Below are positions 1 to 17,805 of a stretch of DNA of 64,000 nt, one piece after another. Position 1 is the stretch's first letter. Each line of letters starts with the position of its first letter. Under the pieces are notes generated by a model. The model did no database searches, had not been told where the DNA came from, and was given only the letters and a program-made list of their open reading frames with translations. Source of the stretch: an uncultured Chloroflexia bacterium (lineage in GTDB: Bacteria; Chloroflexota; Anaerolineae; Anaerolineales; E44-bin32); the NCBI GenBank assembly GCA_963807065.1, contig CAWDZQ010000004.1, positions 1,415,017 through 1,479,016 of the forward strand, in the 5' to 3' direction. Position numbers and translations under genes: made by a program.

Positions 1-106
1 TGGTGCCCGACGCCAAAGGGAAGCTGCCAGCATGCGTGACCCGGGGGCTGTTGTGGAGGAAACGATCACTTGCTAAATTGGGGCTTGACAGCAGCGCCTA
101 CATAGA
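1..106 (+). mobile_element. Right end of IS110/IS1111-type family A element (copy A1, truncated by window edge)
   Basis: 1-106 is nearly identical to 3711-3816 and 16788-16893 and ends ...TTGACAGCAGCGCCTACATAGA followed by AG-GCGGAG (cassette start). Confidence 0.9.
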
Positions 107-202
107 AGGCGGAGCCGCCGAGGCCGGTAGCTTCGAGCGTCCACGGGCCAGGTATCCTATGCTAGACACCCTCGCAACATCATCTTGTTTCGGAGGATTT
201 GC

Positions 203-689: not shown

Positions 690-779
690 GGGAGTTCGGA
701 TCCGGCACATTGCGTCCCTCGCCAAGGGGGATCTAGCCCTGCCGGGCGAGCCTCGTCTCCGCCTAACATCTATGAAAGC

Positions 780-1000
780 ACGTCCCCTGTCAATAGCCTC
801 TGTCGTTAAATGAATTTCTTCTCCCCGGTCGGGGAGTTTTCTTTCGTCTGTTGACCTCCAGCGTTTCAAAGCCCAGCCGGTCTCGCCGGAAACATCTATC
901 CCGTAGGACACCGGGACGGTGTTCGCCCTCAATGGGGCATGAGTACGTTCGCCGGGGGCGGCCCAATCATCTCGCGGATCTCAAAGGATCCATGTTAGGT
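780..1000 (-). ncRNA. Putative bridge/seek RNA of IS family B (3' non-coding end)
   Basis: Minus-strand RNA reads CCTAACAT-hairpin-GCGAGATG, matching both halves of target CCTAACATCTCGC. ATAGATG (893-899) is complementary to the donor junction CA-TCTAT. Conserved in all four copies. Transcript boundaries are approximate. Confidence 0.75.
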
Positions 1001-2097
1001 CCGGACCTGCCCCTGGCTGAGCGAGACAGGGGATTTCAACCCTGCAGGGAGCCAATTGGGCGGCTCCCGGTAGGGCTCACCCTTCTTGAGAACCCAGTAG
1101 GTGGCTTCCGCCAAGTAGCGAGCGGTGGCACCCACTGCAACGGCGTGGCCCTTTCGGCGGCGTGTCCGTTCGAAGAGGTGCACGACGTACTTCTTGCGCC
1201 AGTTGGGGTGATGGCGCTGATGGACGATGACGTTGGCGGCTTCGATGAAAGCCCATTTCAGGTAGGTGTTGCACTGTTTGACCATTCGTCCATAGTGCGC
1301 CTTGCCGGCACTTGAGCTGAGCTTGGGAACCAAACCGCAGTAACTGGCGAAGTGTTTGGGGGAGGGGAAACGGTCGATCGAGCCGACTTCCCTGTCGATG
1401 ACGATGGCCAGCACCTTGGCGGGGCCCGGGACGGTCTGAACGAGCTGGATGGTGGGTGTGGTCTGGATGCGTTGGACAATGCGATCTTCCAACTGTTTGA
1501 TATGTACGTTGAGAGCATCCAGGAGCTGAAGCTGCTGGCGAGTGCAGCGGGCGGTCTCGGCCGGCATCTCAACCAGCAGGGCTTCAAGATCCGCCCGCCA
1601 CTTGGCGCTGAAGATGTCACTGGCGGTGTCGAGCGAGAGGGCGAACTTGGCCAGGGTGGAAGAGATGCGGTTCTTGACCCGGGTCCGGTGGCCGGCGAAG
1701 GTCATCCGGGTGCGGGGCAGCTCCCTCTCATCGCGAGGCTGGCAGGAGGGATCCACACAGAGGGGAGCTTGCCCAGGTAGAGCAGGGTGGCCAGGCCCTT
1801 GGCGTCGAGCTTGTCGGTCTTGTGGATGTTGCCCATCATGACCTTGGCCTTGGCGGCGTGGGCCAAGAGGGGAAAGCAGCCGGCGTCTTCGATTTCGTTG
1901 ACGATCCAGTACCAGTTCCCGATCGTTTCGAGGGCGACCGGCGTGCCCTCTGGGAACTGGGATAGGAAGGCTGAAATCGTGCCTGGTGAATGGCCAACCC
2001 TCCTTTGCTGGATGAGCGATCCCGCTTCATCCAGGACGGCAAAGATGGAGAAATGTTTGTGAGCATCGCAGCCGACCGTATAATCGAAGTGAACCAT
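995..2097 (-). CDS. IS110-family recombinase (family B), frameshift near 1740
   Basis: DEDD motifs GCDAHK, ETIG, KTDKLDA, plus C-terminal FASYCGLVP-SSAGK. Split between ORFs 1702..2133 and 995..1756. Confidence 0.9.
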
Positions 2098-2368
2098 GCT
2101 GCACCTCCTGTGGGCGGACAGGGACTTCGACACTCCCAGTCTAGCGGGAGGTGCAGTGCTTTCATCTAATCATCTCGCTGGATCGGACCGGGGATGCGGG
2201 GCGAGTTTGGTGTGTTTGTTGTATGCTCAGGGAGGCTCGGGGGCGGGGCGGATGCGTGGCCCCGGCCGATCAGCTCGAAGGCGTTAGATGCTATGGGGGG
2301 ATGAAGATACGGGTCGCTGCTGATAAGCTCCTTGAAACTCTCAGATCAAGAGAAAGGAGCGCAACATC

Positions 2369-3514
2369 ATGGCAGCGGCCCGCAGTCACGAGTATAGCGT
2401 ATTGGAACAAGTACTGTATCTGGCCTTCGAACTGAGCAACACAAAGTGGAAACTGGGGTTCACGACGGGGCCAGGGCGGCGGCCCCGCGAGCGGAGCATC
2501 ACCGCCGGGGATCTGGAAGCTCTCCAGGAGGAGATCGGGCGAGCGAAGAAGCGGTTCGATCTGCCTGAGAGCAGTCGAGTGGTGAGCTGCTACGAGGCGG
2601 GACGGGATAGTTTTTGGCTTCATCGATATCTGGAGCAGCAAGGGATCGAGAACCTGGTGGTGGACAGCTCGAGCATTCAGGTGAACCGACGGGCCCGACA
2701 GGCCAAGACTGACCGGATGGACTTGGAGAAACTTCTGGGGCAGCTGATCCGGTACCGGGGAGGGGACCGGGAGGTGTGGAGCGTGGTGCGGGTGCCGAGC
2801 GTGGAGGCGGAGGACAACCGGCAGTTACACCGGGAACTGGAAACCCTGAAGAAGGATCGGACGCGGCACATCAACCGGATCAAGTCGTTCCTGGTGGGGC
2901 AGGGCATCCGGCTGAAGGTGGGGAGTGATTTCCTGGAAGAGATTGAACGGGTGCGCAAATGGGATGGCTCAGCGCTCCCGGCCAGTTTGAAAACCCGGCT
3001 TCAGCGAGAGTATCAGCGGCTTCAGCTGCTGCAGGCCCAGGTCAAGGAGCTGGAGCAGGCGCGGGTGGAGGCGATCCGGCATGGGGAAGACGAGAGTGTG
3101 GAGGTGGTGCGCAAGCTGCTGCGGCTGAACGGGATCGGGCAGAACGCCGGCTGGCTGTTCGGGATGGAGTTCTTCAGTTGGCGGAAGTTCAACAATAGGA
3201 AGGAAGTGGGGGCCCTGGCCGGTCTGGTGCCGATGCCGAGGCAGAGTGGCGACAGCTACCGGGAGCAGGGGATCAGCAAAGCCGGCAACCGGCACGTTCG
3301 GGGGATGGCGATCGAGATAGCATGGGGGTGGCTGCGGTTTCAGCCAGAGAGTGAGCTGACGAAGTGGTATGAGGAGAGATTTGGCCATGGGAGCAAACGG
3401 ATCCGGAAGATCGGGATCGTGGCGCTGGCCAGGAAGCTGCTGATTGAGCTATGGCGCTATTTGGAGACGGGGGCCATTCCTGAGGGGGCGGTGCTGAAGA
3501 CACGGTTGATCTGA
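2369..3514 (+). CDS. IS110-family recombinase (family A), 381 aa
   Basis: Motifs AFELS, YEAG, KTDRMD, GLVPMPRQSG, GISKAGN, IVALARKLL. Confidence 0.95.
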   Translation: MAAARSHEYSVLEQVLYLAFELSNTKWKLGFTTGPGRRPRERSITAGDLEALQEEIGRAKKRFDLPESSRVVSCYEAGRDSFWLHRYLEQQGIENLVVDSSSIQVNRRARQAKTDRMDLEKLLGQLIRYRGGDREVWSVVRVPSVEAEDNRQLHRELETLKKDRTRHINRIKSFLVGQGIRLKVGSDFLEEIERVRKWDGSALPASLKTRLQREYQRLQLLQAQVKELEQARVEAIRHGEDESVEVVRKLLRLNGIGQNAGWLFGMEFFSWRKFNNRKEVGALAGLVPMPRQSGDSYREQGISKAGNRHVRGMAIEIAWGWLRFQPESELTKWYEERFGHGSKRIRKIGIVALARKLLIELWRYLETGAIPEGAVLKTRLI

Positions 3515-3554
3515 AAGGGACGGAAAAGGAGAGAACAGGCAAGCAGGACAACAA

Positions 3555-3790
3555 GGCTGGTGTGAGCAGCTCGTTACTCCGCCGGGTCCGAAGGGACCGA
3601 GCGTTAGATGGGGCGCTCACCAGAGCTTCCAGGATCGCCGACGAGCGAACAAAGCATTGGGTGACCGGCCAAAGACGAGCCGGCACGGATAGAAGGTAGT
3701 TCGAGGCACTTGGTGCCCGACGCCAAAGGGAAGCTGCCAGCATGAGTGACCCGGGGGCTGTTGTGGAGGAAACGATCACTTGCTAAATTG
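3555..3790 (+). ncRNA. Putative bridge/seek RNA of IS family A
   Basis: Stem GTGAGC/GCTCAC closes the loop CTCCGCC-(GGTCC GAAG GGACC)-GAGCGTTAG, matching target CTCCGC-CT-AACGC. A second loop AGCAT...ATAGAAG matches the circle junction. Boundaries are approximate. Confidence 0.75.
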
Positions 3791-3888
3791 GGGCTTGACA
3801 GCAGCGCCTACATAGAAGGCGGCTGTCAGTGGTATCCATGAAATCTAGAGATGGCCGCGGATATCTCTATTCGAAAGGTGAGCCAAAC

Positions 3889-4539
3889 ATGACAAAACTA
3901 CGCGTGGACTTCTTTACAATTTCCCTGGACGGTTATGGCGCCGGCCCTAATCAGAGTTTCGATAACCCGCTCGGCGTCGGCGGGGAATCCTTGCACGATT
4001 GGTTCGTCGTAACGCGCTCCTTTCACCAAATGGCTGGGCAAGATGAAGGCGAGACCGGTATTGACAACGATTTCGCGGAGCGTGGCACAAAGAATCTCGG
4101 CGCATTCATTATGGGACGCAACATGTTTGGGCCGCCGCAAGGCGGGGACTGGGTCGATGGCACGTGGAAGGGTTGGTGGGGTGATAACCCGCCCTATCAC
4201 GGGCCTGTGTTCGTGCTCACCCACTATCCGCGTGCGTCAGTCACGATGGAGGGAGGCACTACATACCATTTCGTGACCGATGGCATTCATGCTGCGCTCA
4301 AACTGGCCACCGACGCGGCGAACGGCAAAGATATTCGACTAGCCGGAGGCGTGGCGACAATCCGGCAATACCTTAAGGCAAAGCTGATTGACCAGATGCA
4401 CATTCCAATCTCGCCAATTGTGCTTGGCACGGGTGAATCGCTGTTCTCCGGCATTGACATGGTCAAGCTCGGTTACGTCGTCACTGAACACGTCCCGACT
4501 GCAAGGGCAACACATATTGTTCTGGCGAAACATGAATAG
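3889..4539 (+). CDS. Cassette 2: dihydrofolate reductase family (RibD C-terminal domain) protein
   Basis: Motifs ISLDGYGAGP, GAFIMGRNMF, PVFVLTH, GGVATIRQYL, PIVLGTG. Start ATG follows AAAGGTGAG. Confidence 0.9.
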   Translation: MTKLRVDFFTISLDGYGAGPNQSFDNPLGVGGESLHDWFVVTRSFHQMAGQDEGETGIDNDFAERGTKNLGAFIMGRNMFGPPQGGDWVDGTWKGWWGDNPPYHGPVFVLTHYPRASVTMEGGTTYHFVTDGIHAALKLATDAANGKDIRLAGGVATIRQYLKAKLIDQMHIPISPIVLGTGESLFSGIDMVKLGYVVTEHVPTARATHIVLAKHE

Positions 4540-4568
4540 ACCGAGGCCCTGTTTCCCTCACCCTTCCC

Positions 4569-5916
4569 TGAACGAGCCGGGGACATAGGTAACAGAATCT
4601 TCTAAGGACATCGGTAACACAGATTCTAAGGACATAGGTAACACTTTCTCGAGAGAGGAGGTGGAGCCGATGCCCTGGGAAGGTGTTACCGTGAGCGAGC
4701 AGAAGCAGCGATTCATCGAAGACCACCTGCTGAACTACTACTCCGTGACGGAGCTGGCTGAACGGTTCAGCATCTCCAGAAAGACAGCGCATAAGTGGAT
4801 CAACCGGTACCGGGAGCGGGGCCTGGCAGGGCTTGAGGAGCTGTCGCGCCGGCCGGAGAGCTGCCCATGGCAGACGCCGGGCGCCATCGTCAGCGAGGTG
4901 GTGAATCTGCGGAAGGCGCATCCTCGCTGGGGGCCGAAGAAGCTCCTGGCGTTGATGGGGCGGCGCGATCCACAGCGACGCCTGCCGGCGGCATCGACGG
5001 TGGCCAAGATCCTGTCGGAAGCGGGGCTAGCAAAGCCCAGGCGGCGGCACCGGCGAGCCCATCCCGGCTGTCCGAAGACCCGGCCTGCAGGGCCGAACGA
5101 CATCTGGGCGGCGGACTACAAGGGGCAGTTCAGGCTGAAGAACGGGAAGTACTGCTTCCCGCTGACGGTGAGCGACCTGGCGAGCCGGTATCTGCTGGGG
5201 TGCGATGCGCATCCGGCGATCTCGCTGGAGCGCAGCCAGGCACATTTCAGGCGTCTTTTCGAGATCTACGGGCTGCCGAACCGGATCCGGACCGACAACG
5301 GGGTGCCGTTCGCCTCCAACGCCCTGGCCAGGCTGTCCCAGCTCTCAGTGTGGTTCATTCGGCTCGGGATCTACCCGGAGCTCATTGAGCCTGGGAAGCC
5401 CCAGCAAAACGGTGTGCACGAGCGAATGCACAAGACGTTGAAAGAGGAGGCAACGATCCCACCAGCCAGCAGCTTCAAGGGCCAACAGAAAAAGCTGGAT
5501 GCCTTCCTTCAGGAGTTCAACCAGGTGCGTCCACATGAAGCGCTGGGGATGAAGAGCCCGTCGGAGGTGTACCGCCCATCCAGCCGTCCCATGCCCCAGA
5601 AGATCGAGACCTACGAGTACCCTGGGCACTACCTGGTGCGGAGGGTGAGCCGGTCAGGGACGATCCGGGTGCTGAGGAAGCAGATCTTTGTGAGCAACAC
5701 GCTGCAGGAGGACTTTGTGGGACTGGAGGAGGTGGGAGACGGCGTGTTTGATGTGTACTTCTGCTTCTACCAGATTGGGCGCTATGATTTGCGGGAGGGG
5801 CGAATGCAGGATATTGTGTCGAAGGTGGGCGTGAGCCGAAAGCAGGTCGATCGGCCGGAGCGAGTGTAACCGATGTCCGTAGAACAAAGTGTTACCCATG
5901 TCCTCGGACAGTACCC
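4569..5916 (+). mobile_element. IS481-family element inserted between cassette-2 gene and its attC
   Basis: Three GGACAT(A/C)GGTAACA repeats at the left end (4581, 4607, 4630) and two inverted copies at the right end (5866, 5890), flanking a DDE transposase. Exact termini are approximate. Confidence 0.85.
4661..5869 (+). CDS. IS481-family transposase (HTH + rve integrase core)
   Basis: MPWEG start, HTH FSISRKTAHKW, catalytic WAADYKG, RTDNG, QNGVHERMHKTLK. Confidence 0.92.
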   Translation: MEPMPWEGVTVSEQKQRFIEDHLLNYYSVTELAERFSISRKTAHKWINRYRERGLAGLEELSRRPESCPWQTPGAIVSEVVNLRKAHPRWGPKKLLALMGRRDPQRRLPAASTVAKILSEAGLAKPRRRHRRAHPGCPKTRPAGPNDIWAADYKGQFRLKNGKYCFPLTVSDLASRYLLGCDAHPAISLERSQAHFRRLFEIYGLPNRIRTDNGVPFASNALARLSQLSVWFIRLGIYPELIEPGKPQQNGVHERMHKTLKEEATIPPASSFKGQQKKLDAFLQEFNQVRPHEALGMKSPSEVYRPSSRPMPQKIETYEYPGHYLVRRVSRSGTIRVLRKQIFVSNTLQEDFVGLEEVGDGVFDVYFCFYQIGRYDLREGRMQDIVSKVGVSRKQVDRPERV

Positions 5917-5923
5917 CCACGCC

Positions 5924-6024
5924 GCCCAACAACTCGATGGAGCCGACCCGGCCAGCCGAGCGGTAGCCATTTGTGCGATACTAGTCTTCGGCTGGCCGGG
6001 CGGCTCATCTCGAGGCCGTTAGGG
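5924..6024 (+). repeat. attC2 (101 bp, uninterrupted)
   Basis: GCCCAAC...GTTAGGG with long imperfect palindrome TCGATGGAGCCGACCCGGCCAGCCGA / TCGGCTGGCCGGGCGGCTCATCTCGA. Confidence 0.88.
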
Positions 6025-6047
6025 GGCATTCAGAATAAGGGGCATTC

Positions 6048-6762
6048 ATGGACCAGCCAGCCTCGCCAGGCAGAGAATCAGTGGACCTTCAGAATGCCAC
6101 TTCAGAACTCCGGCAAGAAATCGATCAGGCGGAGCATCTAGCAGGCAATCTCAAGGGAGGGCCGCCAGATAAGACGCGCGAGCAAATCAGTCGCCTACTG
6201 TCTGCGACACGCCCTCCAGCTGGGCAAAGCATCTCTTCTGTGCGCAAATGCGGAACTGCCAGATGCGCTCATTTTGCTTTCCCGGGCGATCTTGGAGACC
6301 CTGTTCTGGGCAAGATATGTCAGCCTATCCGATGAGAACTCCAAGCGATTTGAAGAATTGGCGCTTGAGGATCTGAAGCGTATCTCCCGCAGGAATCTCC
6401 AAGCAGGTTTTGCTCGCATCGTGGATAGCGAAACCAAAGAGGACAAGACAGACGAGTTCCTCGAATCGGATCCAATGAGGTCTGTTCGACCTCGGATGCG
6501 CGTCGAAGAGGTCGCGAATGCTATTGGCTTTGGCCGCTTGTACTCTATGATGTACCTGTTCGACTCGATCTACGCTCACGGAACCTCTTCTGGCCTGCAG
6601 ACAGACTCGAATGTCCACGCACAGCTCTACACATCCGTCTGTGCCGGACTCGGATACATCCACTGCATCAACCTCATTTCATCGGACTGGCTTGGAAGTC
6701 GGAGGCTAACCACTGCTCCCACACTGTCTAGGGTCCTTGGAATTCCCCTCGATGCCCCCTAA
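6048..6762 (+). CDS. Cassette 3: DUF5677-like helical protein, frameshift near 6200
   Basis: LSRAILE-x-LFWARYV and LYSMMYLFDSIYAHG motifs. The stop TAA lies within the attC R'' box. Confidence 0.6.
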
Positions 6763-6764
6763 CA

Positions 6765-8212
6765 TCCATGAAAGCACGGCCCCTGTCAATACCCTCTGGC
6801 GTTAAATGAAGTTCTTCTCCCCCTAGGGGAGTGTTCATCCTTCAGTTGCCCTCCAGCGTTTCAAAGCCCAGCCGGTCTCGCCGGAAACATCCATCCCGTA
6901 GGACACCGGGACGGTGTGCGCCTCTCGATCGAGGCAAGAGTAAGTTCGCCAGGAGTGGCCCAATCATCTCACGGGTCTCAAAGGACCCATACCGCCAACA
7001 ACGCGGCACTTTGTTAGGCGCGGACCTTCTCCTGGCTGAGCGAGACAAGGTGCTTCATCCCTTCGGGGGCCCAGTGAGGGGGCTCCCGATAGGGCTCACT
7101 CTTTTTGAGAACCCAATAGGTGGCCTCCGCCAGGTAGCGAGCGGTGGCGCCGACGGCGACGGCATGGCCCTTGCGGTGTTTGGTGCGTTCATAGAGGTGG
7201 ACGACGTACTTGCGACGCCAGTTGGGATGGTGGCGGTGGCGGACGACAACGTTGGCAGCTTCGATAAAAGCCCACTTGAGGTAGTTGTTGGCTTGTTTCC
7301 CGAAGGACACCGGGACGGTGTGACCATGCGGCCGTAGTGGACGCGCCCTCCGCTGGCGCTGACTTTGGGGACCAGGCCGCAGTAGCTGGCGAAGTGCTTG
7401 GGGGCGCAGAAGCGGTCGATAGTGCCGATCTCAAGAGTGATGACGGTGGCCAGGATGGCACCCACACCAGGGAGGGTTTGGACGAGCTGCATGCTGTGGG
7501 TGAGCTTGATCCGCTGCTTGATTCTCGCTTCCAGTTGGTTGATGTGATCCTGGACCAGCTCGAGCAGTTCGAGCTCCTGGTGCATGCAGCGACCGGTCTC
7601 CTCGGGCAGTGTGTCGATGAGCTTGAGCAGCGGAGGCCGCCATTTGGGGGTGAAGATATCGCTGGTGGTGTCCAGGGAAAGAGCATACTTGGCCAGGGTG
7701 GAATGAATGCGATTCTTGAGACTAGCCCTGGACTTGGAGAAAGCCATACGGGTGCGGGGCAGTTCACGGGCGTCGCGGACGTCGTTGGGTGGGATCCAGA
7801 CCGATGGTAGCTTGCCCAGGTAGAGCAGGGTGGCTAGGCCCTGGGCGTCGAGCTTGTCGGTCTTGTGAACGTTGCCCATCATGACTTTGGCTTTGGCAGC
7901 GTGAGCCAGAAGCGGGATGCAGCCGGCGTCTTCGATCTCGTCGACGATCCAATACCAGTTGCCGACGGTCTCAAGTGCCACCGGGGTCCCTTGGGGGAAC
8001 TGCTCCAGAAACATGCGAATCGCTCCAGGCACGTGGCCGACCCGGGTGCGCTGGACCAGGTCCCCGTTGTGGTCCAGGACTGCAAAGAGCGAGAAATGCT
8101 TGTGAGCATCAATGCCGACCGTATAATCTGAGTGGAACATGCTGCACCTCCTTTGCGGAACGGTGGCTTCGACACTACCAGTCTAGCGGGAGGTGCAGTG
8201 CTTTCATACAAT
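6765..8212 (-). mobile_element. IS1111-type family B copy B2
   Basis: Same IRs and CA core as B1, with ends TCC-ATG and CAT-ACAAT. Confidence 0.92.
7014..8140 (-). pseudogene. IS110 recombinase B2, frameshifted by a 23-nt insertion at 7299-7321
   Basis: HYGRMV|insert|KQANNYLKWAFIEAA. The same insert is in B3, so it is not a read error. Confidence 0.88.
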
Positions 8213-8376
8213 CATCTCGCTGGATCGGACCGGGGATGCTGGGCGAATTTGGTGTGATTGTTGTATGCTCAGGATGGCTCGGGGGCAAGGAGGAGAATGA
8301 CCCCGGCCGATCCCCTTCGGCTGCGCTCAGGATGCTTCGCGAAGCTCGAGGGCGTTAGGCAGATCCAAAGGTAGGT

Positions 8377-9288
8377 ATGGACTACGATCTTTACCATGAT
8401 GAGTCGAAACTCGATGGGTACTGGCATGGAATGCTTCTTGTGCCCAAACCGAAGCGGCAATGGATGCTCGACCGACTTGCCGACGCGAGAGCCAATGCTC
8501 GCTACTCGGAGCCCTTGGGAATAAAGCGAGTACGGAAAGAGAACCGCGTCTTTGATTGCGCGAAATCTTGGCTCACCGTTGCGATCGCCTCGATGCGGAG
8601 CACGGCAGGCGGAGAGCCTGTGCCCATCTATCTCGGCAAGTCAAAGAGGGGTGTTCCTCAGTACCGACTTGTCGAGGAGGCTCCGGGCGCCAAATTCATC
8701 CTCTTCAGGGAAAGCGATGCGCACCAGGAAATGACCAGCCACCCTGACCATGCGAGCAAAATCGAAACTACATTCAGAATTGGGCTCAAGGGTGGACTGC
8801 ACTTCCTCGGCTCCGAGCAGAAGTCAATATGGATCGATAGCTTGCACTTCGACGGCCACGAGCATCTGAAGCGGAATGTCGACGCCTCACGGATCATAGG
8901 CCGATTGGAAGGCCTCAGGAGCTACTGCCACATTCCCGACAAGTCAGACATTCTTCACGACGGCTCAAGTGACCACCGCAGGCCCGACGCGCAATCCTAC
9001 GATGATTGCCAGTTCTTGCAGTTGACGGACTTGCTTGTTGGATCCTTCCGGACAGTGCTTCTCGGGGCCACAAACGATCTTCATCTCCGAGTGGCCTATC
9101 CTGTCGAGTCGCTTGTTCTCCGATATCAAGAAGGCTACGCCAGGATGAAGAACAGTCGATGGTGGAGTTCCTTCTGCATGAGCCAATGCCACCTTGAAGA
9201 TGATCACTGGGTTTTCGAAACCATGGAGTACGAGCCCTACTACGGTGCAGCCCAAATCGCGCTTCCACTGCAAACGGGATCTGCCTAA
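8377..9288 (+). CDS. Cassette 4: DUF3800-like (RNase H-fold) protein
   Basis: N-terminal LYHDES, central FDG and C-terminal LQLTDLLVG motifs. Stop lies in R'' GCCTAAC. Confidence 0.65.
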   Translation: MDYDLYHDESKLDGYWHGMLLVPKPKRQWMLDRLADARANARYSEPLGIKRVRKENRVFDCAKSWLTVAIASMRSTAGGEPVPIYLGKSKRGVPQYRLVEEAPGAKFILFRESDAHQEMTSHPDHASKIETTFRIGLKGGLHFLGSEQKSIWIDSLHFDGHEHLKRNVDASRIIGRLEGLRSYCHIPDKSDILHDGSSDHRRPDAQSYDDCQFLQLTDLLVGSFRTVLLGATNDLHLRVAYPVESLVLRYQEGYARMKNSRWWSSFCMSQCHLEDDHWVFETMEYEPYYGAAQIALPLQTGSA

Positions 9289-9290
9289 CA

Positions 9291-10737
9291 TCCATGAAAG
9301 CACGGCCCCTGTCAATACCCTCTGGCGTTAAAGAAGTTCTTCTCCCCGCAGGGAAGTGTTCATCCTTCAGTTGCCCTCCAGCGTTTCAAAGCCCAGCCGG
9401 TCTCGCCGGAAACATCCATCCCGTAGGACACCGGGACGGTGTGCGCCTCTAGATCGAGGCAAGAGTAAGTTCGCCAGGGGTGGCCCAATCATCTCGCGGG
9501 TCTCAAGGGACCCATACCGCCAACAACGCGGCACTTTGTTAGGCGCGGACCTTCCCTTGGCTGAGCGAGATAGGGTGCTTCATCCCTTCGGGGGCCCAGT
9601 GAGGGGGCTCCCGATAGGGCTCACTCTTTTTGAGAACCCAATAGGTGGCCTCCGCCAGGTAGCGAGCGGTGGCGCCGACGGCGACGGCATGGCCCTTGCG
9701 GTGTTTGGTGCGTTCATAGAGGTGGACGACGTACTTGCGACGCCAGTTGGGATGGTGGCGGTGGCGGACGACAACGTTGGCAGCTTCGATAAAAGCCCAC
9801 TTGAGGTAGTTGTTGGCCTGTTTCCCGAAGGACACCGGGACGGTGTGACCATGCGGCCGTAGTGGACGTGCCCACCGCTAGCGCTGACTTTGGGGACCAG
9901 GCCGCAGTAGCTGGCGAAGTGCTTGGGAGCGCTGAAGCGGTCGATAGAGCCGACTTCGAGACAGGTGACGATGGCCAGGATGGCGCCCACGCCGGGGAGG
10001 GATTGGACGCGCTGCATGCTGTCGGAGAGCTTGATCCGCTGCTTGATCCTGGCTTCTAGCTGGCCAATGTGATCCTGGACCAGCTCTAGCAGTTCGAGTT
10101 CCTGGTGCATGCAGCGGCCGGTCTCTTCCGGCAGCGTGTCGATGAGCTTGAGCAGCGGAGGCCGCCATTTGGGGGTGAAGATATCGCTGGTGGTGTCCAG
10201 GGAAAGAGCATACTTGGCCAGGGTGGAATGAATGCGATTCTTGAGACTAGCCCTGGACTTGGAGAAAGCCATACGGGTGCGGGGCAGTTCACGGGCGTCG
10301 CGGACGTCGTTGGGTGGGATCCAGACCGATGGTAGCTTGCCCAGGTAGAGCAGGGTGGCTAGGCCCTGGGCGTCGAGCTTGTCGGTCTTGTGAACGTTGC
10401 CCATCATGACTTTGGCTTTGGCAGCGTGAGCCAGAAGCGGGATGCAGCCGGCGTCTTCGATCTCGTCGACGATCCAATACCAGTTGCCGACGGTCTCAAG
10501 TGCCACCGGGGTCCCTTGGGGGAACTGCTCCAGAAACATGCGAATCGCTCCAGGCACGTGGCCGACCCGGGTGCGCTGGACCAGGTCCCCGTTGTGGTCC
10601 AGGACTGCAAAGAGCGAGAAATGCTTGTGAGCATCAATGCCGACCGTATAATCTGAGTGGAACATGCTGCACCTCCTTTGCGGAACGGTGGCTTCGACAC
10701 TACCAGTCTAGCGGGAGGTGCAGTGCTTTCATACAAT
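9291..10737 (-). mobile_element. IS1111-type family B copy B3
   Basis: Near-identical to B2, with the same junctions. Confidence 0.92.
9539..10665 (-). pseudogene. IS110 recombinase B3, frameshifted by a 23-nt insertion at 9824-9846
   Basis: Same lesion as B2. Confidence 0.88.
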
Positions 10738-10879
10738 CATCTCGCTGGATCGGACCGGGGATGCGGTGGCATTTTGGCCTGGATGGTGTATTCTCAGAAT
10801 CGGCTACGGGGCTTGAGGGTTCGTGGCCCCGGCCGATCAGCTCGAGGGCGTTAGATCGCCTTGAAGTGGCAGGAGCAAG

Positions 10880-11499
10880 ATGGGGATTCAAGAGATTCAG
10901 CAGTACGTTACTTTGATCAAAGATGTACTAACCGCTTTGGCGGCGGTGAGCGCCGCCTGCATCGGCTTTTTAGGCCTCGCCACCTGGAGAAAGCAGCTCA
11001 GGGGAAGACAGAATATGAGCTGGCAAGGCGCGTGCTTGTAGCGGTTTACAGGCTCAGGAATGCCGTGTCGTACTTCCGAAATCCTTTCATGACCCCCGGT
11101 GAAATCTCCAACTCCATGGAACGCGAAGGAATGAAAGCGGAACCTGCCGACAGGGAATATCGCTTCAGGTCCACATCCGCGGTCTACAAAGTGAGATGGG
11201 AGAAGATTTCGGACGCCTCCACTGACTTGGAAATCAATGCGATTGAGGCAGAGGTTCTCTGGGGGCGGGGAATCCAGGAAACCTTGATAGAAGTGTCGCG
11301 TTTGATTTCCGATCTAAATTTCAACGTGGGATGGTACCTCAGGGAGCTTGCCGGATACGGCAGTGGAAAACCAGACGATATCGAGCGGCTGGAAAAGTGC
11401 GTATTCTCGATGGGTCCGGAAAACGATGAGTTCGCGAAGAAGTTGTCGGCTGCTGTCGAAGCGGTAGAGGACTTTCTCAAGCCGTTTCTAAGAATCTAA
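10880..11499 (+). CDS. Cassette 5: hypothetical protein with N-terminal TM helix, frameshift near 11000
   Basis: ATG after AGGAG. MGIQEIQQYVTLIKDVLTALAAVSAACIGFLGLATWRKQL joins GKTEYELARRVLVAVYRLR of ORF 10861..11499. Confidence 0.7.
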
Positions 11500-11513
11500 T
11501 CGGCGATCTAACA

Positions 11514-12894
11514 TCTATGAAAGCACGTCCCCTGTCAATAGCCTCTGCCGTTAAATGAACATCTTCTCTCTGGTTGGAGAGTGTTTTTCTTCTTGAGTTG
11601 ACCTCCAGCGCTTCAAAGCTAAGCCGGTCTCGCCGGAAACATCTATTCGCCCTCAATGGGGCATGAGTATGTTCGCCAGGGGCGGCCCAATCATCTCGCG
11701 GATCTCAGTGGACCCATGTTAGCCGCGGACCTTCCCCTGGCTGAGCGAGACAGGGGACTTCATCCCTCCGGGAGCCCAGTGAGGAGGCTCCTGGTAGGGC
11801 TCGCCCTTCTTGAGAACCCAGTAAGTAGACTCGGCCAGATAGCGAGCGGTGGCGCCGACGGCGACAGCGTGGCCCTTTCGCCGGCGGTTGCGCTCGAAGA
11901 GGTGGACGACGTACTTCCTGCGCCAGTTGGCGTGGTGTCGGTGAGCCACGATGACGTTGGCGGCTTCGATGAAAGCCCATTTCAGGTAGGTGTTGGCCTG
12001 CTTAACCATCCGCCCGTAGTGGGCACGGCCGGCACTGGCACTGACTTTGGGCACCAGGCCGCAGTAGCTAGCGAAGTGGTTAGGAGCGCTGAAGCGGTCG
12101 ATGGAGCCGATCTCTCGATCGATGACGATGGCCAGCACTTTGGCCGGCCCGGGAACCGTTTGGACCAACTGGATTGTGGGTGTGGTTTGGATGCGCTCGA
12201 CGATCCGGTCTTCCAGCTGCTTGATGTGGCTGTTCAGAGCGTCGAGGAGCTGCAGCTGCTGGGATGTGCAGCGGGCGGTTTCGGCAGGCAGGTGCTGCAG
12301 CAGGTCTTCGAGATCGCTCCGCCGTCTGGAGGCGAAGATATCACTGGCGCCGTCCAGAGAAAGGGCGTACTTGGCCAGGGTGGAGGAGATTCGGTTCTTG
12401 ACCCGGGTGCGGTGGCCGGCGAAGGTCATCCGGGTGCGGGGCAGCTCACGCTCGTCACGGACCTCAGTCGGTGGGATCCAGACAGAGGGGAGTTTGCCCA
12501 GGTAGAGGAGAGTGGCCAGGCCGTGGGCATCGAGCTTGTCGGTCTTGTGGATGTTGCCCATCATGACCTTGGCCTTGGCGGCGTGAGCCAGGAGCGGGAT
12601 GCAGCCGGAAGCTTCGATCTCGTCCACGATCCAGTACCAATTGCCAACAGTCTCCAAGGCAACGGGTGTCGCATCTGGGAACTGGGAAAGAAAGTCTCCA
12701 ATGGCGCCCGGCACGTGGCCGACGCGGACCTGTTGGGCCAGCTGGCCCGCTTCATCCAGCACAGCGAAGAGTGAGAAATGCTTGTGGGCATCACAGCCGA
12801 TCGTATAATCTGAATGAACCATGCTGCACCTCCTTGGGTGGACAGGGAACCAGACACTCCCAGTCTAACGGGAGGTGCAGTGCTTTCATCTAAT
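11514..12894 (-). mobile_element. IS1111-type family B copy B4 (intact)
   Basis: Same IRs and core as B1, and no mini-insertions. Confidence 0.93.
11719..12822 (-). CDS. IS110-family recombinase (family B), intact 367 aa
   Basis: Full DEDD domain and C-terminal Tnp domain in one frame. Confidence 0.95.
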   Translation of the reverse strand: MVHSDYTIGCDAHKHFSLFAVLDEAGQLAQQVRVGHVPGAIGDFLSQFPDATPVALETVGNWYWIVDEIEASGCIPLLAHAAKAKVMMGNIHKTDKLDAHGLATLLYLGKLPSVWIPPTEVRDERELPRTRMTFAGHRTRVKNRISSTLAKYALSLDGASDIFASRRRSDLEDLLQHLPAETARCTSQQLQLLDALNSHIKQLEDRIVERIQTTPTIQLVQTVPGPAKVLAIVIDREIGSIDRFSAPNHFASYCGLVPKVSASAGRAHYGRMVKQANTYLKWAFIEAANVIVAHRHHANWRRKYVVHLFERNRRRKGHAVAVGATARYLAESTYWVLKKGEPYQEPPHWAPGGMKSPVSLSQGKVRG

Positions 12895-13086
12895 CATCTC
12901 GCTCGATGGGACCGGGGATGCGGGGCGATTTTGGAGCGAGCGTTGTGTTATCGGCATGGGCTTGGAGAAGAGATGTTGATCGACCCCGGCCCATCAGCTC
13001 GGACGCGTTAGGGAGCGCCACCAACTTCATCGGCCGCTCCTTTCCCTAAAGTCGGCCTGAACACAATAATGCACACCAGCATGGTT

Positions 13087-13114
13087 TTGTGCTTAGAACA
13101 TTTGTTGCTATAAT
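13087..13114 (+). promoter_or_regulatory. Sigma70-type promoter of the R-M cassette
   Basis: TTGTGC-16 nt-TATAAT with extended -10 TGn, upstream of RBS GAGGAGG. Confidence 0.6.
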
Positions 13115-13153
13115 CTCTCCCGAAATCATTCTGAGGAGGAGAAGTTTCAAACT

Positions 13154-14044
13154 GTGCCTGGGACACACACATCAAGCTTTGGCACCGGCAAGCGCGAGTC
13201 TCATGACTCAAGTGATTTTTACTCTCGCAGCATGCTTTCTTCCACGAGCCTCGCCCCACTCTCGCACACGGACCTAGGCGAAATCCAGGTTCCGTCAGTC
13301 GGTTCATGGGCTGACAATATTTACTGCTCCTCTGCCACAGACATGAAAGAGGTCCCAGACAACTCTGTAGCGCTCTCGTTCACGTCACCCCCATACAATG
13401 TGGGGAAAGACTACGACGACGACATCAATGTGTCAGAGTATCTCCAACTCATTGAGGATGTTGGCAGAGAGGTCTTTAGGGCTCTGCGTCCCGGAGGAAG
13501 ATACCTGATCAACATCGCCAATGTCGGCAGGAAGCCATACATTCCCCTCCACTCGCTCTTTTGGAATCTACATCTAGGCATCGGATTTCTTCCGATGGGA
13601 GAGATAATCTGGCAAAAGGCCAAGGGCGCCAACGGAAGCTGCGCATGGGGTAGTTGGATGAGCGCGAAAGCTCCAAGGCTGAGGGATGTACACGAGTACA
13701 TTCTTGTGTTGGCCAAGCATTCCTATTCCAGGCCCGACAAGGGTGTATCGGACGTCTCCCGAGAGGAGTTCATGGATTCAACACTCTCTGTTTGGCCAAT
13801 TCCACCGGAGTCAGCCAAGAGAGTGGGTCATCCGGCACCATTCCCCATCGCCTTGGCCTCAAGAGTCGTCAAACTCTACAGCTACGTCGATGACGTTGTG
13901 ATTGATCCATTCGCTGGCTCCGGGACGACTTGCGTAGCTGCCGCACAGTTGGGTCGCCACTTCGTGGGATACGACATTTCGCAAGAGTACTGCCAGCTGG
14001 CCGAAGAAAGGCTGCTTCTGGAGGGGCACAAGTCACTAGTTTAG
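13154..14044 (+). CDS. Cassette 6: beta-class N4/N6 DNA methyltransferase
   Basis: Motif IV TSPPY precedes HPAPFP and motif I DPFAGSGT. Confidence 0.92.
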
Positions 14045-14058
14045 GCACACAATTAGCC

Positions 14059-15108: not shown

Positions 15109-15120
15109 CCTCTAGGGGCT

Positions 15121-15294
15121 CTCTAACATCTCGCTGGATCCCTGGAGGAACACCAGGATCTTCGACGGACCGGGGATGCCGGGCGAGTTTGGCGTGATTG
15201 TTGTATGCTCAGGATGGCCCAGGGGTTAGGCGGTGACTGGCCCCGGCCGATCCCCACAAAGAACGCGGGACTTCGCAGTTCGAGGGCGTTAGAT
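15121..15294 (+). repeat. attC6, carrying two mini-insertions and IS A3 at R'
   Basis: CTCTAACATCTCGCTGGAT...CGGACCGGGG...CCCCGGCCGAT...GCGTTAG. Confidence 0.85.
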
Positions 15295-16893
15295 GCTATG
15301 GGGGATGAAGATGCGGGTCGCTGCTGATAAGCTCCTTGAAACTCTCGGATCAAGAGAAAGGAGCGCAACATCATGGCAGCGGCCCGCAGTCACGAGTATA
15401 GCGTATTCGAATCGGTGCTGTATCTGGCCTTCGAACTGAGCAACACAAAGTGGAAACTGGGGTTCACGACAGGGCCGAGTCGCCGGCCACACGAGCGGAG
15501 CATCACCGCCGGGGATCTGGAAGCTCTCCAGGAGGAGATCGGGCGAGCGAAGAAGCGGTTCGATCTGCCTGAGAGCAGCCGGGTGGTGAGCTGTTACGAG
15601 GCGGGCAGAGACGCCTTCTGGTTGCACAGGTACCTGGAACAGCAGGGGATCGAGAACCTGGTGGTGGACAGCTCTAGCATCCAGGTGAACCGACGGGCCC
15701 GACAGGCCACACCTGCCCTGGCGGGCGGTGCCAGGGAGACTGACCGGATGGACTTGGAGAAACTTCTGGGGCAGCTGATCCGGTACCGGGGAGGGGACCG
15801 GGAGGTGTGGAGCGTGGTGCGGGTGCCGAGCGTGGAGGCGGAGGACAACCGGCAGTTACACCGGGAACTGGAAACCCTGAAGAAGGATCGGACGCGGCAC
15901 ATCAACCGGATCAAGTCGTTCCTGGTGGGGCAGGGCATCCGGATGAAGGTGGGGAGTGATTTCTTGGAAGAGATCGAACGGGTGCGCAAATGGGATGGCT
16001 CAGCGCTCCCGGCCAGCCTGAAAGCCCGGCTTCAGCGAGAGTATCAGCGGCTTCAACTGCTGCAGGAGCAGGTCAAGGAGCTGGAGCGGGCGCGGGTGGA
16101 GGCGATCCGGCATGGGGAAGACGAGAGTGTGGAGGTGGTGCGCAAGCTGATGCGGCTGAACGGGATCGGGCAGAACGCCGGCTGGCTGTTCGGGATGGAG
16201 TTTTTCAGCTGGCGGAAGTTCCCTGGCCTGCGCCTAGGGCAGGCAACAATAGGAAGGAAGTGGGGGCCCTGGCCGGTCTGGTGCCGATGCCGAGGCAGAG
16301 TGGCGACAGCTACCGGGAGCAGGGGATCAGCAAAGCCGGCAACCGGCACGTTCGGGGGATGGCGATCGAGATCGCATGGGGGTGGCTGCAGTTTCAGCCG
16401 GAGAGTGAACTGACCAAGTGGTATGAGGAACGATTTGGCCATGGGAGCAAACGGATCCGGAAGATCGGGATCGTGGCGCTGGCCAGGAAGCTGATGATTG
16501 AGCTATGGCGCTATCTGGAGACGGGAGCTATCCCTGAAGGGGCGGTGCTGAAGGCACGGTTGATTTGAGAGAGATCCAAAGAGGAAAGGACGGGCGAAAA
16601 GGGACAACCAGGCTGGTGCCCTGGTGCCCAGGATGGGTATGAGCAGCTCGTTACTCCGCCGGGTCCGAAGGGACCGAGCGTTAGATGGGGCGCTCAGCAG
16701 AGCTTCCAGGATCGCCGACGAGCGAACAAAGCATTGGGTGACCGGCCAAACAAGAGCCGGCACGGATAGAAGGTAGTTCGAGGCACTTGGTGCCCGACGC
16801 CAAAGGGAAGCTGCCAGCATGAGTGACCCGGGGGCTGTTGTGGAGGAAACGATCACTTGCTAAATTGGGGCTTGACAGCAGCGCCTACATAGA
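15293..16893 (+). mobile_element. IS1111-type family A copy A3
   Basis: Same ends and AG core as A2. Confidence 0.92.
15373..16568 (+). pseudogene. IS110 recombinase A3 with a 27-nt in-frame and a 23-nt frameshifting insertion
   Basis: Versus A2: insert 15710-15736 (KT becomes TPALAGGARET) and insert 16221-16243. Confidence 0.88.
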
Positions 16894-16913
16894 AGGCAGA
16901 CTGATTTCTTCAG

Positions 16914-17687: not shown

Positions 17688-17805
17688 CAAATCGCTGGAT
17701 CGGACCGGGGATGCAGGGCGAGTTTGGCGTGATTGTTGTATGCTCAGGATGGTCCGGGGGCAGGATGGTGCGTTGCCCCGGCCGATCAGCTCGGATGCGT
17801 TGGGC
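17682..17805 (+). repeat. attC7 (124 bp, uninterrupted, last of the array)
   Basis: ATCTAAC-AAA-TCGCTGGATCGGACCGGGG...CCCCGGCCGATCAGCTCGGA-TGC-GTTGGGC. Confidence 0.9.

What the first reader, a model, noticed from the sequence alone, without database searches (positions are those of the whole stretch)
3555..3700. Family A bridge RNA can be read directly: target and donor loops around a CT/AG core
Seen: stem GTGAGC(3562)/GCTCAC(3615) encloses CTCCGCC (3577-3583), hairpin GGTCC-GAAG-GGACC and GCGTTAG (3601-3607). The target bottom strand is CTCCGC-CT-AACGC, so the first guide equals its left half (exact for the A1 flank GGCGGAG) and the second is the reverse complement of its right half. A second loop has AGCAT (3653) and ATAGAAG (3689-3695) around a CCGGC/GCCGG stem, matching the predicted circle junction CATAGA-AG-ATGCT. 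The same layout is in A3. Known: this mirrors the LTG/RTG and LDG/RDG layout of IS621. Inference: a new programmable bridge system with an intact copy (A2).
Basis: partly seen in the sequence, partly recalled or inferred. Interest (0 to 1): 0.85.

Follow-up and report, generated by a model that had tools for sequence, protein, structure and literature searches.

The report
Bridge RNA of an attC-targeting IS
The stretch encodes the guide ("bridge" or "seek") RNA of an IS110/IS1111-type insertion sequence that steers the element into the recombination sites of an integron, which is a well-supported new example of a mechanism described in 2024 and not a new system.

Summary
The element (A2, window 2288-3818) carries an intact 381-aa IS110-family recombinase gene (2369-3514) and a conserved structured RNA region in its long right end (about 3559-3745).

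Comparison with about 90 related loci shows that the guides co-vary with the DNA they should read:
- The 3' target guide matches the left flank: mean 4.2 of 5 against 1.55 for mismatched pairs.
- The 5' target guide matches the right flank.
- The 5' donor guide matches the element's left end: 76 of 102 positions.
- The base after the 3' donor guide equals the first flank base in 68 of 71 loci, like a handshake guide.

The stems also co-vary. The recombinase model best matches the ISCro4 and IS621 bridge recombinases.

The guide order is the reverse of IS621: the match to the top strand lies 5' of the match to the bottom strand. That order, together with the RNA lying 3' of the gene, is the published IS1111/seekRNA layout.

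It is the R' end (GTTAG|GC) of 120-bp integron attC sites. The genome holds 63 such repeats, an integron integrase and the cassette signature.

Verdict: a real bridge RNA and a new member of a known kind. No RNA or biochemical evidence was obtained.

The parts
2163..2287 (+). Right-hand part of a 120-bp integron attC site ending in the R' core ...GGCGTTAG. Its last 7 nt (2281-2287, with AG core at 2286-2287) are the left half of the A2 target.
   Evidence: Profile hit C4:1417179-1417303. There are 63 copies in the genome, in arrays. Cassette signature. Integron integrase.
2288..3818 (+). Family A insertion sequence, copy A2 (1531 bp). The terminal AG (3817-3818) repeats the target core.
   Evidence: Boundaries from the three copies. 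An orthologous empty site for relative L006 lies in the window's own genome at C3:2279.
2288..2368 (+). Short left end. ATGCT (2288-2292) is read by the 5' donor guide. CTATG (2291-2295) is half of the subterminal inverted repeat with CATAG in the right end.
2369..3514 (+). Recombinase gene, 381 aa, intact. Candidate active-site residues are E21, E76, D115, D118 and S293.
   Evidence: Pfam PF01548 + PF02371. NCBIfam NF033542 at 181 bits, cut-off 140. AF2 model pLDDT 86, with best PDB matches ISCro4 and IS621 at E about 1e-12. The SG motif aligns with the IS621 S241 region. Invariant columns in 78 sequences.
3559..3745 (+). Conserved bridge/seek RNA region in the right-end non-coding region. 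RNA ends are not determined.
   Evidence: nhmmer with the 54-sequence alignment, E 3.9e-42. Structure covariation.
3562..3620 (+). Target-binding loop closed by the stem GTGAGC(3562-3567)/GCTCAC(3615-3620) plus an inner stem.
   Evidence: Helices 1-2: 92% and 98.7% of cells paired, with compensatory changes in 5 of 7 pairs.
3577..3583 (+). 5' target guide CTCCGCC. [quoted passage not shown]
   Evidence: Longest common substring between the guide region and the reverse complement of the flank: cognate mean 6.29 against 4.19 for non-cognate pairs. It always lies directly before the GGGTY hairpin.
3585..3598 (+). Hairpin inside the target loop, between the two target guides (GGTCC GAAG GGACC).
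   Evidence: Helix 3 (92% paired, 2 of 4 pairs with compensatory changes).
3601..3609 (+). 3' target guide GCGTT-AG (3601-3607). It has the same sequence as the left flank plus core, so it pairs with the bottom strand. It is followed by AU (3608-3609), which equals the first two bases of the element.
   Evidence: 39 distinct guide/flank pairs: 4.2 of 5 matches against 1.55; 0 of 10,000 permutations reached the observed sum.
3635..3648 (+). Small hairpin between the two loops (UCG/CGA).
   Evidence: Helix 4.
3653..3657 (+). 5' donor guide AGCAT. [quoted passage not shown]
   Evidence: 76 of 102 Watson-Crick matches at the two variable positions; 0 of 10,000 permutations. In ISRel9 the guide is GGGAT and the left end is ATCCC.
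3661..3686 (+). Hairpin inside the donor loop (GUG-A-CCGGC ... GCCGG-CAC).
   Evidence: Helix 5: 98.4% paired, 6 of 8 pairs with compensatory changes.
3689..3696 (+). 3' donor guide ATAGA-AG (3689-3695), with the same sequence as the right end. It is followed by G3696, a handshake-like base equal to the first base of the target's right flank.
   Evidence: The guide and the right end are invariant in the clade. They change together in family C (ATAGGAG / CATAGGA) and in ISRel9 (ATGTGAG / CATGTGAG). The next base equals the flank base in 68 of 71 loci.
3701..3720 (+). 3' hairpin UCG-A-GGCAC UUG GUGCC-CGA.
   Evidence: Helices 6-7 (71-74% paired, 5 of 7 pairs with compensatory changes). Weaker than the others.
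3795..3800 (+). TTGACA box exactly 18 nt from the right end. It is a candidate -35 of a promoter completed by the left end in the excised circle.
   Evidence: The distance is 18 nt in 63 and 19 nt in 5 of 68 loci. Promoter function is inferred by analogy with ISEc11 and ISEc21 (figure legend).
3811..3818 (+). Right terminus CATAGA-AG.
3819..3825 (+). Right half of the A2 target (GCGGCTG), which is the first bases of the next gene cassette. It matches the 5' guide at 5 of 7 positions.
15293..16895 (+). Copy A3 (91% identical). Its recombinase gene is split and its RNA region is 16636-16822. It is inserted at the R' end of an attC (15125-15292).
1..108 (+). Right end of copy A1. The rest lies upstream of the window and its recombinase gene is split.

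Best explanation
Window 2288-3818 is an insertion sequence of the IS110 family with the IS1111-type layout: short left end, recombinase gene, long right end.

The right end is transcribed into a structured RNA of roughly 190 nt with two internal loops. [quoted passage not shown] The two overlap on the AG core. In the donor loop, AGCAU and AUAGAAG do the same on the junction of the excised circle (CATAGA-AG-ATGCT). The base after each 3' guide matches the partner DNA, as the 'handshake' guides of IS621 do.

The recombinase has a RuvC-like domain and a serine-bearing C-terminal domain. Bound to this RNA, it exchanges strands at the AG core and so places the element between GTTAG and GC. That site is the R' core of integron attC sites plus the first bases of the next cassette.

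Shown here: the anatomy, the co-variation of all guide positions with their DNA, the stem co-variation, the fold of the protein, an empty orthologous site, and the attC identity of the target.

Inferred: that the RNA is made and bound by the recombinase, the excised circle, the junction promoter and the chemistry.
For: Anatomy and chance:
- All motifs are at the stated places.
- In shuffles, both target words occurred in 36 of 200,000 and all four words in 1 of 200,000.

Relatives examined:
- 7 loci from genomes.
- 80 kept of 576 metagenome relatives.
- 5 matches in the window's own genome.
- 2 named plasmid loci.

Guide co-variation:
- 3' target guide against left flank: 39 distinct pairs, 21 perfect 5 of 5, mean 4.2 against 1.55, 0 of 10,000 permutations.
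- 5' target guide against right flank: 52 records, mean longest match 6.29 against 4.19, with 16 of 52 at 8 nt or more, at one fixed place before the hairpin.
- 5' donor guide against left end: 76 of 102, 0 of 10,000 permutations.
- Handshake-like base: 68 of 71, and 19 of 22 where the flank base is not G.

Close relatives with changed guides:
- L006 (95% aa) has guide TTGCTGCC and flank GGCAGCAA.
- ISRel9 (38% aa) differs in all four guides, and each fits its own DNA.

Structure: 29 pairs, 90.1% of cells paired against 81% in shuffles and 32-44% when slid. The covariation score is 0.343 against 0.178, with 0 of 500 shuffles reaching it.

Protein: NF033542 'IS110 family RNA-guided transposase' at 181 bits. 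The model best matches ISCro4 and IS621 synaptic-complex chains.

Empty site: own genome C3:2279 reads ...GGGCGTTAG|GCAGCAATGTTC..., identical to the two flanks of L006.

Target is attC: 63 repeats, IntI TIGR02249 at 461 bits against a cut-off of 265, and the cassette signature of 6.6 of 8 against 3.45.

Published layout: the same order of top- and bottom-strand matches and the same 3' position as IS1111 seekRNAs.
Against: - No direct evidence that the RNA exists. Rfam has no matching family. No sigma-70-like promoter or intrinsic terminator was found in 2150-3900.
- The single-sequence fold is not unusually stable (z -1.49).
- The one RNA-library contig covering 3581-3821 belongs to a relative, runs on into flanking DNA and may be DNA carry-over.
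- Guide matches are imperfect in some loci. A2's own right flank fits at 5 of 7 and A3's at 5 of 7. 9 of 39 distinct left-flank pairs match at 3 or fewer of 5 positions. 10 of 52 right flanks give a longest match of 4 or less. The family C left-end guide fits only 3-4 of 5.
- The 3' donor guide and the right end are invariant within the clade. Their pairing therefore rests on family C and ISRel9 only.
- Two loci (L009, L011) need the 5' guide register shifted by one base.
- The first catalytic acid is Glu, not Asp. Its equivalence to IS621 D11 was not shown by alignment.
Confidence: 0.88

Rival explanations
1. Only the first loop is an RNA guide (a short 'seekRNA' for the target). The element's own ends would be recognised by the protein through the subterminal inverted repeats. 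The AGCAT and ATAGAAG matches would then be conserved sequence without RNA-DNA pairing.
For: The 3' donor guide and the right end never vary within the clade, so they give no co-variation. The 5' donor guide fits only 76 of 102 positions. Siddiquee 2024 found a short RNA (82-96 nt) carrying only the target matches to be the predominant species. A weak subterminal inverted repeat exists (3.77 against 3.14 of 7).
Against: The left-end guide does co-vary with the left end (0 of 10,000 permutations). In ISRel9 and family C both donor guides change together with the ends. The base after the donor guide tracks the target flank (68 of 71), which makes sense only if that loop meets DNA. The donor-loop hairpin is the best-supported helix.
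Confidence: 0.07
2. The internal copies of junction sequences act at the DNA level as extra recombinase-binding sites or relics of nested ends, and not as an RNA.
For: GCGTTAGAT and GGATAGAAGG repeat the left and right junctions in the same sense. No transcript was shown.
Against: A DNA site inside the element has no reason to follow the sequence of flanking host DNA, which is not part of the element, yet both target guides do. Compensatory changes keep the stems. The homologous systems IS621 and ISCro4 use RNA.
Confidence: 0.03
3. The matches are chance, in a GC-rich 3' untranslated region.
For: Short words are involved, and the single-sequence fold z-score is only -1.49.
Against: Both target words occurred in 36 of 200,000 shuffles and all four in 1 of 200,000. 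The same arrangement recurs in more than 60 loci with different guide sequences.
Confidence: 0.01

Closest known systems
IS1111-group elements with a right-end seekRNA / bridge RNA (ISEc11, ISPa11, ISKpn4, ISPst6; Siddiquee et al. 2024, PMC11187229; Durrant et al. 2024, PMC11208160)
   Same: The non-coding RNA region lies downstream of the recombinase gene. The match to the top strand lies 5' of the match to the bottom strand. Subterminal inverted repeats are present. The GL-P----SG motif is present (GLVPMPRQSG). The target is a specific short site. ISKpn4 and ISPst6 likewise target one end of integron attC sites.
   Different: The recombinase is 381 aa, against 330-350 aa reported for IS1111 transposases. 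Enterobacterial plasmid IS110-family genes are only about 24-29% identical to it. The first catalytic acid is Glu. The inverted repeat beyond TATG/CATA is weak. The host is an uncultured Chloroflexota-like genome. The relationship to ISKpn4 and ISPst6 themselves was not tested.
IS621 and ISCro4 bridge recombinases with bridge RNA (IS110 group; PDB 8wt6, 8wt9, 9t56)
   Same: A two-loop RNA in which each loop reads both strands around a 2-nt core. Handshake-like bases follow the guides. The protein fold is the same (Foldseek E about 1e-12, TM 0.5-0.64). The catalytic Ser lies in an SG motif.
   Different: In IS621 the RNA is in the left end, upstream of the gene. The order of the guides within each loop is reversed. 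The core is AG here (CT on the other strand). The protein is about 55 aa longer and 18-20% identical.
ISRel9 (Rhizobium etli p42a) and an unnamed IS110-family element of Cupriavidus necator N-1 pBB2
   Same: These are the nearest annotated relatives (38% and 50% aa). They have the same RNA architecture, with all guides fitting their own flanks and ends.
   Different: Their targets are different and are not attC. No bridge RNA is annotated in those records. Whether it has been described for them is unknown, because the supplements of Durrant 2024 could not be seen.

Membership tests
IS110 family (DEDD / RNA-guided recombinase) | Recombinase with an N-terminal RuvC-like DEDD domain (PF01548) and a C-terminal PF02371 domain | tested here: met
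   PF02371 E 2.5e-14 and PF01548 E 7.6e-07 (29.5 bits, just above the 29-bit cut-off). NF033542 at 181 bits against a cut-off of 140. The fold matches IS621 and ISCro4.
IS110 family (DEDD / RNA-guided recombinase) | Catalytic D-E-D-D tetrad and catalytic Ser (IS621: D11, E60, D102, D105, S241) | tested here: inconclusive
   E76 and D118 are invariant and D115 nearly invariant in 78 sequences, and S293-G294 is invariant. SG aligns with the IS621 S241 region. E76, D115 and D118 align with the family B counterparts. The first position is an invariant Glu (E21) at the end of predicted strand 1. Its equivalence to D11 is inferred and was not shown by alignment.
Bridge RNA / seekRNA system | Non-coding RNA with loop segments complementary to both strands of the target, co-varying with the target | tested here: met
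   (and single cases).
Bridge RNA / seekRNA system | Second loop complementary to the element's own joined ends (donor) | tested here: met
   Left-end guide 76 of 102. The right-end guide changes with the right end in family C and ISRel9.
Bridge RNA / seekRNA system | The RNA is expressed, binds the recombinase and is required for transposition | not testable with these tools
   Only one low-depth metatranscriptome contig of a relative was found. This is not evidence of transcription.
IS1111 group | Longer non-coding region downstream of the recombinase gene; short left end | tested here: met
   Left end 81 nt, right end 304 nt.
IS1111 group | Subterminal inverted repeats of 7-17 bp | tested here: inconclusive
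   CTATG/CATAG (5 bp) is conserved. The next 7 positions are complementary slightly more often than in mismatched pairs (3.77 against 3.14, 0 of 5000 permutations). In A2 the match is about 7 of 10.
IS1111 group | Transposase clusters with IS1111 transposases (330-350 aa) | not tested
   No tree with reference IS1111 and IS110 proteins was built. The length of 381 aa is outside the reported range. The closest named relative is ISRel9.
IS1111-attC group (name recalled; Tetu and Holmes 2008, cited in PMC11187229) | Inserts at a fixed position and orientation in integron attC sites | tested here: met
   A2, A3, L006, L007, L022, L013, L014 and L017 lie directly after an attC-like repeat. A1 lies after a shorter site with GCCTAAC ... 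ATTAG|GC (read by eye). attC identity.
IS1111-attC group (name recalled; Tetu and Holmes 2008, cited in PMC11187229) | Sequence relationship to ISPa21, ISKpn4 and ISPst6 | not tested

The most novel reading that the evidence does not exclude
The 381-aa ISRel9-like clade may be a third, uncharacterised branch of bridge recombinases. Its features are an invariant Glu in place of the first catalytic Asp, a -35-like box fixed 18 nt from the right end, and a donor-loop handshake base that reads the target. In this Chloroflexota-like lineage three separate elements have specialised on three positions of one integron attC site: A at GTTAG|GC in R', B near R'', and C in the middle. If so, they would act as site-specific 'locks' that split attC sites and freeze cassettes.
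Probability: 0.25. Interest if true: 0.5.

Novelty: new member of a known kind. Interest (0 to 1): 0.32.

Why it matters
It adds a well-documented natural series to the catalogue of RNA-guided recombinases. The series has dozens of relatives with readable guide, target and donor triplets. It includes near-identical pairs whose guides have been retargeted: CTCCGCC in A2 and TTGCTGCC in a 95%-identical copy. It also includes a handshake-like position visible by co-variation alone. This is useful raw material for anyone choosing new bridge recombinase orthologues or studying guide rules in the IS1111-type layout.

It also shows that the first about 18 kb of the window is an integron cassette array, whose attC sites are colonised by three different IS110-family lineages. 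It does not reveal a new mechanism.

Tried and rejected
1. An outer stem closing the donor loop (CGAAC/GTTCG) has no co-variation. It is 75.7% paired against 75.6% in shuffles, with 0 compensatory pairs. I dropped it.

2. My own earlier reading was that the about 190 bp left of A2 and A3 is the long left end of a second IS ('family B'), and that A lands on B's end junction. I rejected it after one search showed about 30 solo copies. The repeat is an integron attC site, and B proper is inserted inside it.

3. Rfam gave no family at gathering thresholds for the whole window. At E up to 10 it gave only a chance lncRNA hit.

4. The promoter and terminator scan of 2150-3900 found nothing.

5. The single-sequence fold of 3515-3822 is not significantly stable (z -1.49). 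The minimum-free-energy fold did not reproduce the comparative structure fully.

6. Public runs: all runs are contigs. The one RNA-library run (X20) has a 330-nt contig over 3581-3821 that carries the guide variant of a relative and continues into flanking DNA. The ratio of attC depth to element depth is similar in the RNA and DNA runs. I make no claim about expression or habitat.

7. Alignment of the N-terminal strand of A2 with family B or with IS621 failed. The E21 = D11 equivalence therefore stays an inference.

The Tetu and Holmes 2008 paper is not held. Supplements of the 2024 papers, which may list predicted bridge RNAs for ISRel9-like elements, could not be seen. The claim that this clade is undescribed is therefore not made.

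9. No complex-prediction job, no covariance model and no protein-database search (search for homologous proteins, the search of protein representatives, the protein-atlas search) was run.

Rows dropped before counts:
- parsing needs the motifs GGATAG[AG]AG, AGAT[GT]GG, AGATnnTATG and TTGAC[AT]...CATAG[AG]A[AG]. Loci lacking a motif or cut by a contig end are absent from the respective test. As a result, 64 records had both guide and left flank, 52 had anchor and right flank, 51 of 54 aligned RNAs had a left end, and 71 had a right flank.
- L030 and L079 were left out of alignment A6 because the contig ended.
- The motif-based selection favours loci that resemble A2.

Full report
**1. The observation**

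These are the stem GTGAGC 3562 / GCTCAC 3615, CTCCGCC 3577-3583, the hairpin 3585-3598, GCGTTAG 3601-3607, AGCAT 3653-3657, the stem CCGGC 3665 / GCCGG 3679, and ATAGAAG 3689-3695.

They lie 45-180 nt downstream of a 381-aa open reading frame (2369-3514). That frame carries both Pfam domains of IS110-family transposases. It also scores 181 bits on NCBIfam NF033542, 'IS110 family RNA-guided transposase', against a cut-off of 140.

**2. The element and its copies**

Self-comparison of the window and a search of the whole genome give three copies:
- A2 at window 2288-3818.
- A3 at 15293-16895 (91% identical).
- A1 (98% identical), which ends at window position 108 and otherwise lies upstream of the window.

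Alignment of the ends fixes the junctions:

| Copy | Left junction | Right junction |
|---|---|---|
| A1 | GCATT-AG\|ATGCT | CATAGA-AG\|GCGGAG |
| A2 | GCGTT-AG\|ATGCT | CATAGA-AG\|GCGGCT |
| A3 | GCGTT-AG\|ATGCT | CATAGA-AG\|GCAGAC |

CTCCGCC is the reverse complement of G+GCGGAG. GCGTTAG equals the left flank plus core. AGCAT is the reverse complement of the left end. ATAGAAG equals the right end.

In 200,000 shuffles of the right-end non-coding region, both 7-nt target words appeared in 36 and all four words in 1.

Only A2 has an unbroken recombinase gene. A1 and A3 are each split into two frames.

**3. Comparative test of the guides**

I collected relatives from four sources:
- 7 loci from genome collections.
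- The best 80 of 576 metagenome matches.
- A 65%-identical second family in the same genome (family C: L004 and L005).
- Two annotated plasmid elements.

Ends and guides were located by conserved anchor motifs. Results:
- **3' target guide.** The 5 nt before the AG core match the left flank at a mean of 4.2 of 5 in 39 distinct guide/flank pairs, 21 of them perfect. Mismatched pairs give 1.55. None of 10,000 permutations reached the observed sum.
- **5' target guide.** The longest common substring between the region before the hairpin and the reverse complement of G plus the right flank averages 6.29 nt in 52 records, against 4.19 for non-cognate pairs. 16 of 52 are 8 nt or longer. The match sits directly before the conserved GGGTY hairpin in nearly all of the good cases.
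- **5' donor guide.** It pairs with the two variable bases of the left end (ATnnT) in 76 of 102 cases, with 0 of 10,000 permutations.
- **3' donor guide.** It is invariant in the clade, as is the right end. In family C both change together (ATAGGAG with CATAGGA). In ISRel9 both change together as well (ATGTGAG with CATGTGAG).
- **Base after the 3' donor guide.** It equals the first base of the right flank in 68 of 71 loci, and in 19 of 22 where that base is not G. None of 10,000 permutations reached this. This is the behaviour of the handshake guides described for IS621 (passages of PMC11208158).

Results against the reading are also on record:
- A2 and A3 flanks fit the 5' guide at only 5 of 7 positions.
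- 10 of 52 right flanks give matches no better than chance.
- Two loci need a one-base shift.
- The family C left-end guide fits only 3-4 of 5.

**4. RNA structure**

A MAFFT alignment of 54 distinct RNA regions gives an RNAalifold consensus of 21 pairs, 14 of them with compensatory changes.

I then tested a hand-extended structure of 29 pairs:

| Measure | Observed | Shuffles | Slid by 1-3 columns |
|---|---|---|---|
| Cells paired | 90.1% | 81.0% | 32-44% |
| Covariation score | 0.343 | 0.178 | not recorded here |

None of 500 shuffles reached the observed covariation score. The stem closing the target loop and the hairpin inside the donor loop are the best supported. A possible outer stem for the donor loop has no support. 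The fold of A2 alone is not unusually stable. Rfam holds no matching family.

**5. The protein**

An AlphaFold2 model built on 78 sequences has mean pLDDT 86. Its best PDB matches are chains of the ISCro4 and IS621 synaptic complexes (E about 1e-12, TM 0.5-0.64).

A profile of the family aligns its PyqSG motif with the IS621 region that holds catalytic S241. E76, D115, D118 and S293 are conserved.

The first acidic position is an invariant Glu (E21) in all 78 sequences. It lies at the end of the first predicted strand. I could not align this strand with a canonical Asp-bearing relative.

**6. What the target is**

I first took the conserved DNA left of A2 and A3 for the end of another IS. A genome search then found 11 long and about 30 short (116-120 bp) copies. 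A profile search found 63 copies, arranged in co-oriented arrays with 0.4-2.6 kb spacing.

The evidence that these are integron attC sites:
- One array of 19 repeats on contig C2 ends 1.6 kb from a gene matching the integron-integrase model TIGR02249. It scores 461 bits against a cut-off of 265, and none of 14 control genomes passes. The gene is transcribed divergently from the array.
- The repeats run CTAAC...GTTAG, with flanks fitting the attC core consensus RYYYAAC / GTTRRRY. That consensus is recalled, not taken from a call.
- The 8 nt after one repeat are the reverse complement of the 8 nt before the next. The mean is 6.6 of 8 in 15 adjacent pairs, 11 of them at 7 or 8, against 3.45 in 687 other pairs. 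By my own knowledge of integrons, this is the signature of integron gene cassettes.

The repeats are therefore attC sites. The first about 18 kb of the window is a cassette array with co-oriented single genes.

Family A inserts between GTTAG and GC, inside the R' core. Its 3' guide reads the conserved R' end. Its 5' guide reads the cassette-specific bases that follow.

The genome holds one perfect, unoccupied site for A2's guides, on contig C2 near 15749. It also holds the empty counterpart (C3:2279) of the site occupied by the 95%-identical element L006 in a related genome. Together these confirm the element boundaries.

Eight of 76 loci with enough upstream DNA have the element directly after an attC-like repeat (L001, L003, L006, L007, L013, L014, L017, L022). 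A ninth, L020, sits 14 nt inside one, with guides that fit that position. Family C sits in the middle of the same repeat.

**7. Comparison with what is known**

Durrant et al. 2024 (PMC11208160, passages read) describe the two-loop bridge RNA of IS621. They state that IS1111-group elements carry the predicted bridge RNA in a long right end.

Siddiquee et al. 2024 (PMC11187229, abstract and sections 6, 9, 12, 13 read, plus passages) show experimentally that IS1111 members use a downstream seekRNA. In it the match to the top strand lies 5' of the match to the bottom strand, which is the reverse of IS110-type elements. They also report that ISKpn4 and ISPst6 target one end of attC sites.

Family A has exactly this order and position. 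It works like these systems and belongs to the IS110 family. Membership of the IS1111 group proper is likely but not settled:
- The protein is longer than the reported range.
- It is only about 24-29% identical to enterobacterial plasmid relatives.
- The inverted repeat is weak.
- No tree was built.

**8. Verdict**

The bridge-RNA reading is strongly supported by co-variation, though not by any RNA or biochemical data. The novelty is that of a new member of a known kind, in a new host group and with a nicely readable natural guide series. It is not a new system.

Noticed in passing
window 763-18000 and own genome C2:829-24215, C1:236000-262000 and 408000-412500, C3:2159-7483: A large chromosomal integron or several cassette arrays. 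The genome holds 63 copies of a 120-bp attC-like repeat. An IntI gene lies at C2:23274-24215 (TIGR02249, 461 bits). Co-oriented single-gene cassettes lie between the repeats, mostly without Pfam hits; one is an N6/N4 DNA methylase at window 13154-14044. Several contigs begin or end in these arrays.
   Followed up: partly
window about 771-2170, 6767-8240, 9293-10735, 11516-12890 (minus strand genes): Family B is a second IS110-family element with perfect 10-bp inverted repeats (ATGAAAGCAC / GTGCTTTCAT). It is inserted near the R'' end of attC sites. Read by eye in the alignment, its right-end non-coding region has the same target-loop design. CCTAACA(T) is the reverse complement of the flank TGTTAGG. 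GCGAGA equals the left flank and is followed by TGATT, the first bases of the element. There are 11 long copies in the genome. B1, B2 and B3 have frame-shifted genes.
   Followed up: partly
L004 (own genome C2:9380-10426) and L005 (C1:240486-241532): Family C is a 65%-nt relative of A, inserted in the middle of the attC repeat at GCATAC-AA-CAATCAC, with guides fitting that site. Its core reads AG at the left junction and AA at the right, as if donor and target cores differed at the second base.
   Followed up: partly
window 2369-3514 and 77 relatives (alignment A7): The position expected for the first catalytic Asp of the DEDD tetrad is an invariant Glu (motif [AL][FIL]EL[SG]) in all 78 sequences.
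   Followed up: partly
window 3795-3800 and 68 related loci: A TTGAC[AT] box lies exactly 18 nt from the right end in 63 of 68 loci and 19 nt in 5. Together with TnnTAT at the start of the left end, it would form a promoter only in the excised circle, with a spacing of about 19 nt.
   Followed up: partly
window 2134-2334 in public runs X1, X5, X6, X20: The attC-like repeat is 16 to 160 times deeper than the neighbouring element in soil and salt-marsh contig sets. Related repeats are therefore abundant in those communities. Many contigs break at window 2171, which is the attC/family B junction.
   Followed up: no
window 4661-5869: A 402-aa gene with rve / HTH_32 / IS481-type domains is another, unrelated transposase. 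It lies just downstream of the RibD_C-domain cassette gene at 3889-4539.
   Followed up: no
L047 582-1364 and L070 77-853: In two metagenome loci a distant IS110-family gene (28% identical to family B) lies right beside the A-like element. This suggests that nesting of such elements is common.
   Followed up: no
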